Shown one piece after another: positions 23,042 to 28,466 of a stretch of DNA of 51,299 nt; the stretch's first letter is position 1; each line of letters begins with the position of its first letter. Location: the sequence record MZ234033.1. One strand, 5' to 3'. The DNA comes from Escherichia phage vB_EcoS-G3B1. The notes under the pieces were generated by a model, which was not told the origin of the DNA, did not search any database, and saw only the letters and a program-made list of their open reading frames with translations. The position numbers and the translations under genes are program-made.

Positions 23042-23618
23042 ACTATCTGGTTCCCTGGGGCGTAGATTTGGCGTCTTTCACAAAATGGCGGTTGACTCAT
23101 ACCCCGAAGCAATACGAGCGTTATCTTCCCAGGTTGATGGGTTCAAAGACTACATGCAAAGCGAAGTAGGATCGCGAATGAAGTATGCTGTATTTGTTGA
23201 TGGAAAAAACGTTAGTCAGCATGATGAAAAATCATGGAAGTGCGCGCGAGAGGTTCGAATAGTTCCCGTTCCAACTGGTTCTAAGTCCGGCGGCCTGTTC
23301 AATGTTGTTTTTGGTGCTGTAATTATGGCTACTGCGTTCTTTACTGGTGGTGCAAGCCTGGCGGCTATGGGCGCTTTTGCATCTTCCGCATTTATGATTG
23401 GTGGGGCTATCGCGTTGGGCGGTGTAATGCAAATGATCTCACCGCAGCAGGGAGGAATGAAACTGCAAAGCCAATCAGCAGAAAACAAGCCTTCTTACGC
23501 TTTCGGCGGTGCTGTAAATACCACGGCGGCAGGTTATCCGGTTCCTTTGCCATATGGATATAGGACAGTAGGCGGAGCAATCTGGTCGGCTGGCAGCTAC
23601 GCAGAAGATAAAGCATAA
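23022..23618 (+). CDS. Tail assembly protein (lambda I-like)
   Basis: 198 aa with Gly/Ala-rich hydrophobic C-terminal half; position between K-like and J-like genes. Confidence 0.6.
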   Translation: MTLKVIKLSGSLGRRFGVFHKMAVDSYPEAIRALSSQVDGFKDYMQSEVGSRMKYAVFVDGKNVSQHDEKSWKCAREVRIVPVPTGSKSGGLFNVVFGAVIMATAFFTGGASLAAMGAFASSAFMIGGAIALGGVMQMISPQQGGMKLQSQSAENKPSYAFGGAVNTTAAGYPVPLPYGYRTVGGAIWSAGSYAEDKA

Positions 23619-23624
23619 AAAAAT

Positions 23625-23648
23625 ACCCGCCTTGCGCGGGTTTTTTTG
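23625..23648 (+). terminator. Hairpin plus T-run before J-like gene
   Basis: CCCGCCTTGCGCGGG then TTTTTTT. Confidence 0.55.
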
Positions 23649-23696
23649 TGCATTTATAATGTGCAAACCAAGAAACAGCACAAAAGGTTAAAAGTC

Positions 23697-26600
23697 ATGG
23701 CTAAATATATGATAAGCGGCAGTAAGGGAGGCGGTCAAAAGCCCTACGTGCCAAAAGAGATGGAAGATAACCTGATCTCGATAAACAAGATTAAAGTTTT
23801 GCTGGCTGTATCTGATGGCGAGTGCGATCCAGATTTTACGTTGCGTGATCTTTATCTTGATGATGTTCCGGTTATTGCCAGCGATGGCACTGTTAACTAC
23901 GAGGGAGTTACGGCTGAATATCGACCAGGCACGCAGACGCAAGATTACATCCAGGGTTTTACTGACACATCAAGTGAGGTTACAGTTGCCAGAGATATTA
24001 CCGGAGACAATCCTTATGTTATTTCTGTTACAAATAAAAATCTATCTGCGGTAAGAATAAAGATCCTGATGCCAGTAGGCATTAAAACAGAGGATAACGG
24101 CGATCTTGTTGGCGTAAGGGTTGAGTATGCCGTAGATATGGCTGTTGATGGCGGTTCTTATAGCGAGGTTATGAGAGATGTAATTGACGGCAAGACAAGA
24201 TCAGGATACGACCGCAGCAGAAGGATTGATCTTCCTAAGTTTGATGAGCGCGTTTTAATCCGAGTAAAGCGACTGACTCCAGACAGCACATCTTCAAAGG
24301 TGACTGATAAAATCAAGCTGCAAAGTTACGCTGAGGTTGTTGATGCAAAATTCCGCTATCCTCTGACTGGACTTGTATTCGTAGAATTTGACAGCGAATT
24401 GTTTCCTACGCAAATCCCTAACATTTCTATAAAAAAGAAATGGAAGATTATTAATGTGCCAAGCAACTATGATCCAATATCAAGAGAATATCACGGGTCA
24501 TGGGATGGGACTTTTAAAAAAGCGTGGTCAAATAATCCTGCTTGGGTTCTTTATGATCTGGTGACAAATCAGCGTTATGGACTTGATCAGCGAGAGTTAG
24601 GAATACAGATCGACAAGTGGAGCTTATACGAGGCGGGCGTTTACTGCGATCAGAAAGTTCCAGACGGTAAAGGCGGCACTGAGCCTCGCTACCTATGCGA
24701 TGTGGTGATTCAGAATCAAGTTGAGGCTTATCAGCTAATCCGTGACATTTGCTCAATCTTTCGCGGAATGAGTTTTTGGAATGGTGAGAGCTTATCAATC
24801 GTGATTGATAAGCCGCGCGATCCATCATACGTGTTTACTAATGAAAACGTCATCAACGGTGATTTTCAGTACACAAACGCAAGCGAAAAAAGCATGTACA
24901 CGCAGTGTAACGTGACGTTTGACGACGAACAAAACATGTATCAGCAGGACGTAGAGGGGGTTTTTGATACTGAGGCGGCATTACGATTTGGATACAACCC
25001 AACAAGCATTACAGCGATCGGGTGTACGCGCAGGAGCGAAGCGAATCGTCGCGGTCGTTGGGTTTTGAAAACAAACCTTAGAAGCACTACTGTAAACTTT
25101 GCTACCGGACTAGAGGGGATGATTCCATCAATAGGTGATGTTATTGCTATCGCTGATAATTTTCAGAGTAGCAACCTAACGTTAAACCTATCGGGCCGAG
25201 TAATGGAAGTTTCAGGGCTGCAGGTTTTCGTTCCGTTTAAGGTTGATGCTCGCCCTGGTGATTTTATTATCATCAACAAGCCGGACGGCAAGCCAGTTAA
25301 GCGCACGATCTCAAAGGTTAGCGCAGACGGAAAAACCATTGAGTTAAATATTGGATTTGGTTTTGATGTTAAGCCTGATACTGTTTTTGCGATTGACCGT
25401 ACTGATCTTGCGTTGCAGCAATACGTTGTGACAACCATCAGCAAGGGTGATGACGAAAACGAGTTTACCTATTCAATCACGGCTGTAGAGTACGATCCGA
25501 ACAAATACGACGAGATTGATTATGGAGTAAACATTGATGACAGACCGACTTCAATTGTTCAGCCTGACGTGATGGCAGCGCCTGAGAACGTTAAGATCTC
25601 ATCTTATTCTCGCGTCGTGCAGGGTGTTAGCGTTGAGACTATGGTTGTTTCATGGGATAAGGTTCCTTACGCATCGCTTTATGAAATGCAGTGGCGAAAA
25701 GGTGATGGTAACTGGCTGAATACGCCGCAGACCGCTAACAAAGAGATAGAGGTAGAAGGGATTTACTCTGGCAACTACCAAGTAAGGGTGAGATCCGTTT
25801 CTGCAAGCGGTAACGCTTCCCCGTGGTCAAAGATTGCAACCGCCACTCTGACAGGTAAAGTTGGCGAGCCAGGAGCGCCGATTAATCTTACGGCTTCTGA
25901 TAATGAAGTTTTTGGCATTCGTGTCAAATGGGGTATGCCGGAAGGATCAGGCGATACGGCTTACATTGAGCTTCACCAATCGCCAGACGGAACGGTTGAA
26001 AACTCAAGTCTGCTTACGCTGATTCCATATCCTCAATATGAGTATTGGCATAGCACGTTACCAGCGGGGCAAGTTGTATGGTATAGAATCCGCAGCGTTG
26101 ACAGAATAGGCAACGTTTCAAGCTGGACTGACTTTGTTCGCGGCATGGCGTCAGATGACGTTGAATCTGTTTTGGGCGACATTCTGGACAAGATTTTTGA
26201 TACAGAAGCTGGTCAAGAAATCAAAGAGAACGCCATAGACAGTGCCAATAAAATCAAAGACCAGGCGCAATCAATCATACAGAACGCGTTGGCAAATGAT
26301 GCAGATGTGAAGTGGACGCGAGTGCAAAACGGAAAGCGCAAGGCTGAATATGGTCATGCTCTTGAGCTTATCGCCAATGAAACAGAAGCGCGCGTAACTC
26401 AAATCGAAGAGTTAAGGGCTTCAATTGATGGCGAGATAACATCAAGCATCAAGACAGTGCAGGAGGCAATTGCCACTGAATCAGAGACGCGAGCGACTCA
26501 AATTCAGCAGCTTGATTCTAAATTCACAAAAGAAATCGACGGCGTGCGCAAGGATACTTCTGCAAGCATTAGCGATGTAAGGCAGACAATCACTAACGAG

Positions 26601-27275
26601 TCAGAAGCGCGCGCTCAGGCCGTTCAGCAGCTTGACGCTAAGTTCACGAAAGAGATAAACGACCTTGACGGAGTTATCAAAACAGAAGTCGAGGCTAACA
26701 TCTCAGAAGTGAAACAGGCGATCGCCAATGAGACAGAGGCAAGGGTTCAGGCTGACCAGGCATTAACAGCACGATTTGGCGACGTTGAATCTGCATTGGT
26801 TGAAAAGTTGGATTCTTGGGCGAGCGTTGATTCAGTTGGGGCTAAATACGCTATGAAACTTGGCCTTACTTACAAAGGCCAGCAATACAGCGCAGGAATG
26901 GTGATGCAGCTTTCGCAGGGTTCATCCGGCCTTATCTCGCAAATTTTGTTTGATGCTAACAGGTTCGCCATTATGACTAGCTCTACTGGAGGGACTTTTA
27001 CTTTGCCTTTCGTGGTTGAGAATAATCAGGTTTTCATTAATAGTCTTTTGGTGAAGAACGGTTCAATCACTAATGCGATGATTGGTAATGTGATTCAGTC
27101 AAACAACTTTGTTCAAAACCAGCAAGGATGGAGGCTTGATAAAAACGGAATCTTTGAGAATTACGGATCAACGCCAGGAGAAGGAGCTACTAAATTCACC
27201 AATGAGGGATTGAAGGTAAAAGATGCAAACGGAGTATTGAGGGTTGAAGTCGGAAGGATTACCGGAAGATGGTAA
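23697..27275 (+). CDS. Tail tip / host specificity protein (lambda J-like) with C-terminal ~40-aa repeats
   Basis: 1192 aa after I-like gene; RBS AAAGG before ATG 23697; repeat units NETEARVTQIEEL.., SETRATQIQQLDSKFTKEI.., SEARAQAVQQLDAKFTKEI.. Confidence 0.8.
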   Translation: MAKYMISGSKGGGQKPYVPKEMEDNLISINKIKVLLAVSDGECDPDFTLRDLYLDDVPVIASDGTVNYEGVTAEYRPGTQTQDYIQGFTDTSSEVTVARDITGDNPYVISVTNKNLSAVRIKILMPVGIKTEDNGDLVGVRVEYAVDMAVDGGSYSEVMRDVIDGKTRSGYDRSRRIDLPKFDERVLIRVKRLTPDSTSSKVTDKIKLQSYAEVVDAKFRYPLTGLVFVEFDSELFPTQIPNISIKKKWKIINVPSNYDPISREYHGSWDGTFKKAWSNNPAWVLYDLVTNQRYGLDQRELGIQIDKWSLYEAGVYCDQKVPDGKGGTEPRYLCDVVIQNQVEAYQLIRDICSIFRGMSFWNGESLSIVIDKPRDPSYVFTNENVINGDFQYTNASEKSMYTQCNVTFDDEQNMYQQDVEGVFDTEAALRFGYNPTSITAIGCTRRSEANRRGRWVLKTNLRSTTVNFATGLEGMIPSIGDVIAIADNFQSSNLTLNLSGRVMEVSGLQVFVPFKVDARPGDFIIINKPDGKPVKRTISKVSADGKTIELNIGFGFDVKPDTVFAIDRTDLALQQYVVTTISKGDDENEFTYSITAVEYDPNKYDEIDYGVNIDDRPTSIVQPDVMAAPENVKISSYSRVVQGVSVETMVVSWDKVPYASLYEMQWRKGDGNWLNTPQTANKEIEVEGIYSGNYQVRVRSVSASGNASPWSKIATATLTGKVGEPGAPINLTASDNEVFGIRVKWGMPEGSGDTAYIELHQSPDGTVENSSLLTLIPYPQYEYWHSTLPAGQVVWYRIRSVDRIGNVSSWTDFVRGMASDDVESVLGDILDKIFDTEAGQEIKENAIDSANKIKDQAQSIIQNALANDADVKWTRVQNGKRKAEYGHALELIANETEARVTQIEELRASIDGEITSSIKTVQEAIATESETRATQIQQLDSKFTKEIDGVRKDTSASISDVRQTITNESEARAQAVQQLDAKFTKEINDLDGVIKTEVEANISEVKQAIANETEARVQADQALTARFGDVESALVEKLDSWASVDSVGAKYAMKLGLTYKGQQYSAGMVMQLSQGSSGLISQILFDANRFAIMTSSTGGTFTLPFVVENNQVFINSLLVKNGSITNAMIGNVIQSNNFVQNQQGWRLDKNGIFENYGSTPGEGATKFTNEGLKVKDANGVLRVEVGRITGRW

Positions 27276-27301: not shown

Positions 27302-27916
27302 TTAATCATAGTGTGATGCATTTATAACCAAAACAGATGAAGCGGTGTAAATACCAACAGGTCCAGGAGTTTGTGCAACCTGCCTAGAAAAAGAGTAGAT
27401 CCCGTTACCATACGCGGCAGCTTGAGACTCAAAAATCATGAATCCACCTAAAGCCGGATTAGGAACAGAGTTTAATGCTGTCAGTGATGGCATTATGGCG
27501 CAAGGATAGCCCATGTTAACATCAAATGCGATCCCGCTTACGCCTACTTGCTTTGCATCTAGCGGCCTCATTTTTCCATGATAAACCATTTCACCATGAG
27601 CATTATAAAACGCTATGCCGTGACTACCTGGGGGAGTAACCATATTACTAAAAGCATAAACAATAACCTCACCCTGATTATCAGATCTATCAAGTCTTAT
27701 TGCGTGCCTTCCACCATTGTTAAATTGCGTGAATGATATGTATGATTTAGCGGTCAATCTAACAAAGAAAAAACATACCCTATCAACAGGAATTGACGAA
27801 GTAAAAACGGTTCCGGTATTAGCAGATATTACGGCCCGATCAATTAGATTAACTGGAGTGAAATCTGGACTTAACCATAACGATCCGTCTGATTTTTTTA
27901 TACTCATCCCGTACAT
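27302..27916 (-). CDS. Hypothetical tail-associated protein (204 aa)
   Basis: First ATG at 27916 preceded by GGGGGTGA; co-transcribed with lipoprotein gene downstream of J-like gene. Confidence 0.45.
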   Translation of the reverse strand: MYGMSIKKSDGSLWLSPDFTPVNLIDRAVISANTGTVFTSSIPVDRVCFFFVRLTAKSYISFTQFNNGGRHAIRLDRSDNQGEVIVYAFSNMVTPPGSHGIAFYNAHGEMVYHGKMRPLDAKQVGVSGIAFDVNMGYPCAIMPSLTALNSVPNPALGGFMIFESQAAAYGNGIYSFSRQVAQTPGPVGIYTASSVLVINASHYD

Positions 27917-27918
27917 TA

Positions 27919-28197
27919 TCACCCCCAAAAAGTATATATATATCTTGAATCAGATCCAGAAAGCCCACTCCATGTAACGGTGTCGCCACTCACCCCTAAG
28001 TTTGGTGCGCCAGGGTCGCCACCACGCCAGGAATTCATGCCAACATATATTGCTTTCAATGATTTACCTGGCGGCCTGTTTTGGTAAGTCTTGCTACCTG
28101 ATGGCTGAGTGAATTTATCAAGGAAGAAAACAGGCGTTAAAAGTCCTGTAACTTCCCTTCCTCGATCGTCATATATTGCATAACCATATTGCGCCAT
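27919..28197 (-). CDS. Hypothetical protein (92 aa)
   Basis: ORF between lipoprotein and 204-aa gene. Confidence 0.45.
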   Translation of the reverse strand: MAQYGYAIYDDRGREVTGLLTPVFFLDKFTQPSGSKTYQNRPPGKSLKAIYVGMNSWRGGDPGAPNLGVSGDTVTWSGLSGSDSRYIYTFWG

Positions 28198-28466
28198 TAA
28201 TTACACCTCAAATCAATAAATTTACTTTCATTTTGCCAACGGTTGATAAATTTAACTTCTTTATTGTCAACGCTCAACCTGTATTGCTTTTGGCTGAATC
28301 TGTTTTCGCGGACTGCATTAATTTTGACTTCATGGAATCCGTTAACAGGGAATGTTTTAACGTTAAATTTTGCCGTGCAATCGATCTCCTTGAAGTTGCC
28401 AGTAGGCGACGCTGCGCATCCTGTCAGAGCGGCTACAGTGGCGATAACTGCGATTAACTTTTTCAT
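28197..28466 (-). CDS. Cor-like outer-membrane lipoprotein (candidate superinfection exclusion)
   Basis: Signal peptide with lipobox LTGC (MKKLIAVIATVAALTGC), 89 aa, located by receptor-binding module. Confidence 0.6.
   Translation of the reverse strand: MKKLIAVIATVAALTGCAASPTGNFKEIDCTAKFNVKTFPVNGFHEVKINAVRENRFSQKQYRLSVDNKEVKFINRWQNESKFIDLRCN

What the first reader, a model, noticed from the sequence alone, without database searches (positions are those of the whole stretch)
26330..26800. Approx. 40-aa tandem repeats in the C-terminal region of the J-like tail tip protein
Units of the form (N/S)E(T/S)EAR(V/A)TQ(I/V)..LD(S/A)KFTKEI... recur at least three to four times before the extreme C-terminal domain, likely forming an extended coiled or fibrous spacer ahead of the receptor-binding end. 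This is an unusual addition to a lambda J-like protein.
Basis: seen in the sequence. Interest (0 to 1): 0.4.

Follow-up and report, generated by a model that had tools for sequence, protein, structure and literature searches.

The report
Hairpin repeats in phage tail-tip fibre
The repeats are real: four 33-44-residue units in the central tail fibre of a T1-like E. coli phage, matching a shaft that in F-type pyocins was recently shown to snap from a three-stranded helical rod into a compact beta-prism to open the tail, so this is a new example of a just-described device.

Summary
The gene at 23697-27275 (+) encodes a 1192-aa lambda-J-like central tail fibre of a Warwickvirus (Drexlerviridae). 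Residues 883-1041 hold four tandem units with periods of 33, 40 and 44 aa. Units B, C and D are far more alike than any pair in 1000 shuffles; unit A is weaker.

The segment is not unusual: T1 gp33 has it, and 1640 phage records carry this C-terminal module. Lambda J itself has only about 37 aa there. It is probably more than a spacer.

- Each unit is reverse strand, NETE-type turn, forward strand, DG turn.
- The strands carry the alternating SxSxxMxxLxS motif that He et al. [quoted passage not shown]
- AlphaFold2 with a 49-sequence alignment gives a confident beta-meander. With the single sequence it gives one unbroken 159-residue helix.
- Hydrophobic periodicity is 3.64 residues (hendecad-like), unbroken across all units.
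- A profile of homologues aligns the region to the F2 pyocin coiled-coil shaft.

Most likely this is a metastable trimeric coiled coil that converts to a beta-prism on receptor binding. That step is inferred, not shown. The receptor binder is probably encoded downstream, not in J. Verdict: a new member of a known kind.

The parts
23697..27275 (+). Gene for the 1192-aa J-like central tail fibre (tip attachment protein)
   Evidence: ORF. Pfam FNIII-A_GpJ 2.5e-40, Phage-tail_3 1.1e-22, Phage_Tail_Tip 3.4e-39. Full-length match to T1 gp33 (PDB 9l9p_S, E = 0); lambda J 3e-119. 99.9% nt identity to the orkinos 'tail fiber protein'.
23970..24347 (+). FNIII-A_GpJ domain (aa 92-217)
24714..25160 (+). 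Phage-tail_3 hub domain (aa 340-488)
26157..26294 (+). Helical linker (aa 821-866), helical in both AF2 models. Candidate 'spine' segment.
   Evidence: The analogy to the F7 pyocin spine (PMC12874032) is an inference.
26343..26441 (+). Repeat unit A (aa 883-915, 33 aa): ...LELIA-NETE-ARVTQIEELRA-SIDGE
   Evidence: This is the weakest unit; its reverse strand does not fit the motif.
26442..26561 (+). Repeat unit B (aa 916-955, 40 aa): SSIKTVQEAIA-TESE-TRATQIQQLDS-KFTKEIDGVRKDTS
26562..26693 (+). Repeat unit C (aa 956-999, 44 aa): ASISDVRQTIT-NESE-ARAQAVQQLDA-KFTKEINDLDGVIKTEVE
26694..26819 (+). Repeat unit D (aa 1000-1041): ANISEVKQAIA-NETE-ARVQADQALTA-RFGDVESALVEKLDSW. It marks the end of the segment predicted helical from the single sequence.
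26802..27191 (+). Phage_Tail_Tip (PF09327) domain, aa 1036-1165. Beta in both models. Probable non-switching beta-prism seed and docking end.
   Evidence: Aligns to lambda J 843-933.
27302..28466 (-). Three small genes downstream of J (208, 92 and 89 aa). Probable receptor-binding and superinfection-exclusion locus.
   Evidence: phrog_425 1e-49, phrog_557 4e-20, Cor-like phrog_1119 8e-08. The locus type is described in PMC8594841 and 10.64898/2026.04.02.716166. The role here is inferred.

Best explanation
Residues 883-1041 of this T1-like central tail fibre are four copies of a hairpin-forming unit. Each unit is reverse strand, N/T-E-S/T-E turn, forward strand, D-G turn.

In the assembled virion the three chains most likely form a trimeric, hendecad-type coiled-coil shaft about 24 nm long. 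It carries the C-terminal beta-prism domain and a separately encoded receptor-binding protein. In each ETEAR motif the Arg lies on the core face and the Glu four residues before it lies at the edge of that face. This places one polar layer per unit in the core. A Gly sits at the other turn.

On receptor binding the shaft is proposed to refold into a short, wide beta-prism, nucleated from the C-terminal prism strands, as solved for the homologous shaft of the F7 pyocin. That would shorten the fibre by roughly 19 nm, pull the tip to the outer membrane, displace the fibre sideways, open the tip and release the tape-measure protein.

Shown here: the repeats, the motif, homology to the pyocin shaft, the two alternative predicted folds and the helical periodicity.
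Inferred: the trimeric state, the switch itself, its trigger and its consequences.
For: - The repeats are significant.
- Seven consecutive matches to SxSxxMxxLxS alternate strictly in orientation: 898F, 916R, 931F, 956R, 971F, 1000R, 1015F.
- In 48 homologues the S positions are A 71%, S 9%, T 8%, V 8%. The L positions are L 57%, I 30%, V 7%. The M positions are V/I/L 76% and D/E 16%. He et al. report for S: A 68%, S 11%, T 7%, V 8% (PMC12874032).
- AF2 with the 49-sequence alignment gives mean pLDDT 87.7, about 95 across the repeats, as an antiparallel meander. Its turns fall exactly on NETE, TESE, NESE, NETE and on the DG sites.
- AF2 on the single sequence gives one helix over aa 883-1041 with pLDDT 73-91. 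This deep-versus-shallow split is the one He et al. used to call fold switchers.
- Hydrophobic periodicity is 3.64 residues with power 5.2. None of 2000 shuffles reaches it, and power at 3.5 is 0.01.
- Unit lengths are 33 = 3x11, 40 = 33+7 and 44 = 4x11, all of which keep the helical register.
- The Arg of each ETEAR motif lies on the core face (angles -41, -18, -22 and +10 degrees), with Glu at i-4 at the edge of that face. This matches the buried Glu-Arg i/i+4 pairs described for F7.
- The profile of homologues hits the F2 pyocin fibre 25vf_A at 1e-116, aligned through its solved coiled-coil shaft, and 9ze4_N at 6.5e-30.
- He et al. list the Drexlerviridae phages TLS and Shfl1 among predicted switchers.
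Against: - There is no experimental structure of this segment in any T1-like phage. T1 gp33 residues 821-1172 were not resolved (PMC11945409).
- Both predictions here are monomers, whereas the real object is a trimer.
- AF2's beta model could reflect alignment-driven bias. The single-sequence helix could be AF2's default for amphipathic sequence.
- Small residues at the S positions could also be explained by coiled-coil packing alone.
- The motif is loose: 38 of 5000 composition-matched shuffles reach the observed total of nine matches in aa 821-1040, of which the seven alternating ones are part.
- The periodicity is hendecad-like, unlike the heptad register reported for the F2 shaft (F2 peak 3.52).
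- Structure searches did not recover a pyocin prism.
- He et al. is a preprint, and it notes that lambda and T5 do not use this switch.
Confidence: 0.6

Rival explanations
1. The segment is a static trimeric coiled-coil shaft. It is a length-setting spacer, possibly also the docking platform for side fibres, and it stays helical throughout infection.
For: There is a strong, unbroken 3.64-residue amphipathic periodicity and a single-sequence helix. In F2 pyocin the homologous shaft is a coiled coil to which side fibres attach at a Gly kink. The window has Gly at each DG site: 912, 949 and 992. Copy number varies from 0 to at least 16 units among J-like proteins, as expected for a spacer.
Against: It does not explain the strict alternation of oriented SxSxxMxxLxS motifs. 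It does not explain the confident beta-meander from the alignment, with turns exactly at the conserved motifs. It does not explain a conserved polar Glu/Arg layer in the core once per unit. The homologous F7 shaft was seen in both states, and beta-prism-destabilising mutants were inactive.
Confidence: 0.25
2. The segment is a constitutive beta structure, an extension of the C-terminal beta-prism or central straight fibre as in lambda J, and is never helical.
For: The alignment-based AF2 model has very high confidence, with pLDDT about 95. Its best Foldseek matches are lambda J central-fibre chains. He et al. report that AF3 predicted a prism for 30% of related fibres.
Against: Hydrophobic power at period 2.0-2.2 is negligible (0.14-0.26) against 5.2 at 3.64. 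Insertions relative to T1 are 7 and 11 residues, the register-preserving lengths for a helix. The homologous pyocin shaft is helical in the native particle in three independent studies. The Foldseek TM-scores are poor, 0.23-0.28.
Confidence: 0.1
3. The similarity between units is a by-product of biased coiled-coil composition rather than true repeats.
For: Tandem Repeats Finder finds nothing at the DNA level. Unit A is weak. Pfam reports only sub-threshold generic coiled-coil families over the region.
Against: Composition-preserving shuffles never reach the B-C, C-D or B-D scores (0 of 1000). The units align in register with the four units of T1. T1 carries an exact 33-aa duplicate that close relatives lack.
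Confidence: 0.02

Closest known systems
Central fibre protein of F-type pyocins (F7 CFP; F2 PA0641/PyoF10): coiled-coil shaft that switches to a beta-prism
   Same: - J-like hub followed by FNIII domains, a long helical shaft and a Phage_Tail_Tip-type beta-prism end.
- Profile-level homology through the shaft.
- Alternating SxSxxMxxLxS motif with the same residue classes.
- Glu-Arg i/i+4 pair at a core position.
- Switch region of similar size: 159 aa here against 163 aa in F7.
- Receptor binders encoded by separate genes.
   Different: - The periodicity here is hendecad-like (3.64), whereas a heptad register is reported for F2.
- The units here are clearly recognisable tandem repeats with a conserved NETEAR turn.
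- This is a genome-injecting phage, not a bacteriocin.
- Neither state has been observed experimentally for this protein.
Phage T1 gp33 central fibre (PDB 9l9p, PMC11945409)
   Same: Full-length homologue (E = 0), with four units at the same positions 895, 928, 961 and 994, the same hendecad periodicity (3.66) and the same C-terminal domain.
   Different: T1's units are all 33 aa, and two of them are exact duplicates. In the window, units B and C are lengthened by 7 and 11 aa at the DG hairpin tip. This region of T1 was not resolved and was only modelled with AlphaFold3.
Lambda gpJ central tail fibre (PDB 8iyk, 8xcj)
   Same: Hub domains, FNIII domains and the Phage_Tail_Tip domain are homologous. 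The gene order is also the same.
   Different: Lambda has only about 37 aa of helix where this protein has about 212 aa. It has no hairpin repeats. It carries its own C-terminal receptor-binding domain, which is absent here.
TLS and Shfl1 J proteins (Drexlerviridae), listed by He et al. as predicted fold switchers
   Same: Same family. TLS is 45% identical over the C-terminal module and has the same unit type.
   Different: TLS has three turn motifs rather than four, and it has a C-terminal receptor-binding extension. He et al. report a helical insert between strands 3 and 4; none is predicted here.

Membership tests
Lambda gpJ-like central tail fibre / tip attachment protein | Signature hub and FNIII-A domains plus a Phage_Tail_Tip domain | tested here: met
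   Pfam hits above the curated cut-offs: 138, 81 and 134 bits.
Lambda gpJ-like central tail fibre / tip attachment protein | Full-length homology to structurally defined J proteins | tested here: met
   T1 gp33 E = 0; F2 pyocin 2.7e-225; lambda J 3.1e-119 over aa 12-846.
Lambda gpJ-like central tail fibre / tip attachment protein | Position directly after the tail assembly (gpI-like) gene in the tail module | tested here: met
   The upstream ORF 23022-23618 matches phrog_32 'tail assembly protein' at 3e-67. The orkinos annotation agrees.
Lambda gpJ-like central tail fibre / tip attachment protein | Own C-terminal receptor-binding domain, as in lambda J | tested here: not met
   The protein ends 27 aa after the tail-tip domain, and lambda J aligns only up to its residue 933. 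This is a feature of lambda, not of the wider family.
Fold-switching coiled-coil to beta-prism central-fibre segment (He et al. 2026) | Homology of the C-terminal ~400 aa to the F-pyocin central fibre | tested here: met
   The profile of 49 sequences hits 25vf_A at 1e-116 through its shaft, and 9ze4_N at 6.5e-30.
Fold-switching coiled-coil to beta-prism central-fibre segment (He et al. 2026) | SxSxxMxxLxS motif on each strand, alternating in orientation | tested here: met
   Seven alternating matches. Residue-class frequencies in homologues match the published ones. The motif count alone is only modestly significant (38 of 5000 shuffles).
Fold-switching coiled-coil to beta-prism central-fibre segment (He et al. 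2026) | High coiled-coil propensity | tested here: met
   Periodicity of 3.64 residues with 0 of 2000 shuffles reaching it; a single-sequence helix. CoCoNat, the predictor used in the paper, was not available.
Fold-switching coiled-coil to beta-prism central-fibre segment (He et al. 2026) | Both folds predicted: beta from deep alignments, coiled coil from shallow ones | tested here: met
   Both are monomer models, not the trimer or CF-random protocol of the paper.
Fold-switching coiled-coil to beta-prism central-fibre segment (He et al. 2026) | Non-switching beta-prism strands immediately C-terminal, acting as a seed | tested here: inconclusive
   Strands from about aa 1070 are beta in both models. 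However, the single-sequence model has pLDDT below 50 there.
Fold-switching coiled-coil to beta-prism central-fibre segment (He et al. 2026) | Two states observed experimentally, with function lost when the beta state is destabilised | not testable with these tools
   Shown only for the F7 pyocin. The T1 C-terminus is unresolved.
Canonical heptad coiled coil | 3.5-residue hydrophobic periodicity | tested here: not met
   Power at 3.5 is 0.01 and the peak is at 3.64, close to 11/3. The register is hendecad-type.

The most novel reading that the evidence does not exclude
The ~33-residue NETEAR/DG hairpin unit may be a general, copy-number-variable 'spring' module of phage fibres. Its length would be quantised (33, 36, 40 or 44 residues) so that it satisfies both a hendecad coiled coil and a beta-hairpin. 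The number of units (0 in lambda, 3-4 in T1-like phages, at least 16 in P0051) would then set the stroke length and the stored energy of the tail tip. The module would also have spread to non-J fibres, including pb4-spike-containing and collagen-containing ones.
Probability: 0.25. Interest if true: 0.6.

Novelty: new member of a known kind. Interest (0 to 1): 0.4.

Why it matters
How non-contractile phage tails find the energy to open and breach the outer membrane is a long-standing question. The coiled-coil to beta-prism switch was proposed only in 2026, and only for a pyocin.

T1-like coliphages, including this Warwickvirus group and the near-identical SECphi27, are easy to grow and mutate. 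Here the segment is a clean four-unit repeat with identifiable turn, core and small-residue positions. That gives precise mutations to test whether the switch operates in a real, DNA-injecting phage.

The correction also matters for annotation. The region is not a receptor-binding determinant, and it is not an oddity of this one protein.

Tried and rejected
- Tandem Repeats Finder on the DNA found nothing, because the copies are too diverged and unequal.
- A PDB sequence search with the repeat region alone found only T1 gp33; the remaining hits were chance coiled coils.
- Foldseek of the alignment-based model against the PDB gave lambda J open-state chains at the top, but with TM-scores of 0.23-0.28.
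- The supplementary tables of He et al., which list the 24 phages analysed, are not held. I could only establish from a figure legend that TLS and Shfl1 were included.
- The simple count of motif matches is not strongly significant on its own. The strict alternation and the conservation in homologues carry the weight.
- I considered whether the LD(S/A)KFTKEI extension marks receptor specificity, given that NupG-associated GpJ segments were reported in 10.64898/2026.04.02.716166. I could not test this.
- I rejected a canonical heptad coiled coil and a compositional artefact.
Full report
**What is there.** The finding lies in a 3579-nt gene at 23697-27275 on the + strand. The mechanical ORF list starts it at a TTG at 23646. 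The ATG at 23697 matches the annotation of phage orkinos and the alignment to T1 gp33. The 1192-aa product has Pfam FNIII-A_GpJ (aa 92-217), Phage-tail_3 (aa 340-488) and Phage_Tail_Tip (aa 1036-1165), all above the curated cut-offs. It aligns end to end with the central fibre gp33 of phage T1 (PDB 9l9p_S). Its first ~840 residues align with lambda J and with the F2 pyocin fibre. The gene is 98-99.9% identical in nucleotides to the central-fibre gene of orkinos, tinuso, swan01, JK16, SECphi27 and others. Orkinos is classified as Drexlerviridae, Tempevirinae, Warwickvirus. No ORF of 80 aa or more overlaps the region on the opposite strand.

**Check of the observation.** Coordinates 26330-26800 correspond to aa 878-1035. 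E[TS]E[AT]R occurs four times, at aa 895, 928, 968 and 1012, giving periods of 33, 40 and 44 aa. I compared 28-residue cores starting at aa 883 (A), 916 (B), 956 (C) and 1000 (D). B-C share 15/28 residues, C-D 17/28 and B-D 11/28. None of 1000 composition-preserving shuffles of aa 821-1040 produced a best pair as good as any of these three. Unit A is weaker, matched by 4-17 of 1000 shuffles. At the DNA level there is a four-copy family of 60-77% identity and an 82% pair. Tandem Repeats Finder sees nothing. The unit length is not a fixed ~40 aa. The LD(S/A)KFTKEI part belongs only to units B and C.

**Anatomy of a unit.** Each unit reads: an 11-residue segment of pattern SxLxxMxxSxS, a four-residue N/T-E-S/T-E segment, an 11-residue segment SxSxxMxxLxS, then a variable stretch containing D-G. 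Here S means small, L means Leu/Ile/Val and M is mostly hydrophobic. Seven such segments alternate strictly in orientation: 898F, 916R, 931F, 956R, 971F, 1000R, 1015F. This is the motif that He et al. derived for the strands of the fold-switching region of F7 pyocin and related phage central fibres (PMC12874032). In 48 homologues aligned to the window protein, the S columns are A 71%, S 9%, T 8%, V 8%. The L columns are L 57%, I 30%, V 7%. The M columns are V/I/L 76% and D/E 16%. He et al. report for S: A 68%, S 11%, T 7%, V 8%. The motif is loose. Nine matches in aa 821-1040, which include the seven alternating ones, are reached by 38 of 5000 shuffles. The alternation and the conservation are therefore the informative part.

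**Two predicted folds.**
- AlphaFold2 on aa 820-1192 with a 49-sequence alignment gave mean pLDDT 87.7, about 95 over the repeats. It shows helices for aa 822-865 and then a continuous antiparallel beta-meander.
- The turns of that meander fall exactly on NETE (893-896), TESE, NESE and NETE on one edge, and on IDGE, IDGV and LDGV on the other.
- Strand lengths are 14, 14, 18, 18, 20, 20, 14 and 14. These account for the unequal periods.
- The same tool given the single sequence predicts one unbroken helix from aa 883 to 1041, with pLDDT 73-91.
- This deep-beta versus shallow-helix split is the criterion He et al. used, with CF-random, to of 24 phage fibres fold switchers.
- Both models here are monomers, so the three-chain geometry is not tested.

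**Evidence that the helical state is selected.** Hydrophobic residues over aa 883-1041 have a single sharp periodicity of 3.64 residues with power 5.2. The maximum over 2000 shuffles is 2.33. Power at 3.5 is 0.01 and at 2.0-2.2 is 0.14-0.26. That is 11/3, a hendecad register, held in phase across all four units. T1 gp33 gives 3.66. The F2 pyocin shaft gives a weak 3.52, in line with the heptad register reported for it. The unit lengths 33 (3x11), 40 (33+7) and 44 (4x11) all preserve the helical register. Relative to T1, the window protein has insertions of exactly 7 and 11 residues, placed at the DG hairpin tips. On the helical wheel the Arg of each ETEAR motif lies on the core face (angles -41, -18, -22 and +10 degrees), and the Glu four residues earlier lies at its edge. 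So each unit puts one polar Glu/Arg layer into the core. This corresponds to the buried i/i+4 salt bridges He et al. describe. These polar layers, and the Gly residues, sit exactly where the beta model makes its turns. I read them as built-in weak points, but that is an inference.

**Homology to the solved switch.** A profile of the 49 sequences hits the F2 pyocin central fibre (25vf_A) at 1e-116. The alignment runs through residues ~960-1084, inside the shaft solved as a trimeric coiled coil. It also hits 9ze4_N at 6.5e-30. Lambda J is matched only through the tail-tip domain. Three independent studies show the pyocin shaft as a coiled coil in the native particle, and two of them show that it is the attachment site for side fibres. 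He et al. additionally solved the post-ejection state, in which the 163-residue coil has become a beta-prism. They also showed that Gln substitutions at S positions abolish killing without affecting assembly. Their figure legend names TLS and Shfl1, both Drexlerviridae, among the predicted switchers. The window protein is 45% identical to TLS over the C-terminal module. For T1 itself, residues 821-1172 could not be resolved and were only modelled (PMC11945409).

**Is it unusual?** It is not.
- Lambda J has about 37 residues between the end of its FNIII domains and the tail-tip domain, against about 212 here.
- Even so, tblastn finds the C-terminal module in 1640 phage records, and 852 of them cover at least 80% of it. 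The hosts include Escherichia, Klebsiella, Pseudomonas, Ralstonia and others.
- Unit number varies. T1 carries an exact 33-aa duplicate that its close relatives CLB_P3 and Sfin-3 lack. TLS has three turn motifs.
- A search of 1.84 billion representative proteins found a 1922-aa J-like protein (P0051) with at least 16 units over about 760 residues.
- That search also found the same unit in fibres of other architectures: one with a collagen repeat, one with a PB4 spike.

**The 'receptor-binding end'.** The protein ends 27 residues after the tail-tip domain and has no counterpart of lambda's receptor-binding domain. Downstream on the minus strand are three small genes. Their products match phrog_425 (membrane-associated protein), phrog_557 (outer membrane protein) and a Cor-like superinfection-exclusion family. 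In Drexlerviridae the receptor-binding proteins are thought to be encoded in exactly this locus and attached non-covalently to J. The tip domain of GpJ is suggested to provide compatibility with the receptor binder (PMC8594841; 10.64898/2026.04.02.716166). Warwickviruses closely related to this one were reported not to depend on FhuA alone, and their receptor is unknown (PMC10373560).

**Most likely mechanism.** A trimeric hendecad coiled coil spans 159 residues. At about 0.15 nm per residue that is roughly 24 nm (my estimate). It holds the beta-prism tip and the receptor binder away from the hub. Receptor engagement lets the coil refold from the C-terminal prism strands into roughly ten stacked strands, about 5 nm tall. 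This shortens the fibre by roughly 19 nm, moves it aside, opens the tip and releases the tape-measure protein. All steps after 'coiled coil' are transferred from the F7 pyocin and are not shown for any phage. I put 0.6 on this reading, 0.25 on a purely static shaft or side-fibre dock, 0.1 on a constitutive beta structure and about 0.02 on an artefact.

**Verdict.** This is a real, significant repeat, and its location was correctly reported. The 'coiled spacer' reading is half right, 'unusual' is wrong, and the receptor-binding role is probably misplaced. The segment is a new, particularly clean member of the just-described class of predicted fold-switching central-fibre shafts. It has a hendecad register and quantised unit lengths as small additional points. 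Interest is 0.4.

Noticed in passing
P0051 (1922 aa), aa ~1016-1777: A J-like protein (FNIII-A_GpJ plus Phage_Tail_Tip) in which the same NETEAR unit is expanded to at least 16 copies over about 760 residues. Spacings are 33, 36, 40, 66 and 72 aa, and the hydrophobic period is 3.60. If helical it would be a shaft of roughly 110 nm. Its source is unknown.
   Followed up: partly
P0052, P0053, P0056: The same unit (AISDE(S/E)(E/Q)ARA...LD(T/A)KF..., spacing 33-36 aa, period 3.6-3.66) occurs in large fibre proteins of other architectures. One has a collagen triple-helix repeat. Another has Phage-tail_3 plus a T5 PB4-spike domain. No Pfam family describes the unit.
   Followed up: partly
T1 gp33 aa 921-986 (NC_005833 27812-27910 and a second place): T1 and vB_SsoS_008 carry two exact copies of the 33-aa unit VIATETEALSREIDQLKAQIGDDIQASLTDIRE. 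Close relatives CLB_P3 and Sfin-3 carry one. This points to recent gain or loss of a whole hairpin unit.
   Followed up: partly
window 27302-27928 (-), 27919-28197 (-), 28197-28466 (-): Three small genes converge on the end of J. Their products match phrog_425 (membrane-associated protein), phrog_557 (outer membrane protein) and a Cor-like superinfection-exclusion family. This is the hypervariable receptor-specificity locus type described for Drexlerviridae. The receptor was not identified.
   Followed up: partly
window 23618-23697 versus orkinos MN850586 17676-18152 (L003 4447-4923): Orkinos has an extra 477-nt hypothetical ORF between the tail assembly gene and J. The window has only a 78-nt gap there.
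   Followed up: no
GenBank MG0656xx records: Eighteen records named 'Campylobacter phage' (for example A136, A118, A121, C4) carry this T1-like coliphage J gene at 73-82% identity, in genomes of about 48-50 kb. Some have a 12-aa longer repeat region. The host labels look doubtful.
   Followed up: no
window 23697-27275 (homologue in SECphi27, 98.8% nt identity): The SECphi27 central tail fibre is the protein to which the bacterial Bil defence system conjugates its ubiquitin-like protein (10.1101/2023.09.04.556158). The modified site relative to the repeat shaft was not stated in the text read.
   Followed up: no
window 23646-23696: The mechanical ORF begins at a TTG 51 nt upstream of the ATG used in related annotations. 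Residues before MAKYMISGSKGG have no counterpart in T1 gp33.
   Followed up: yes
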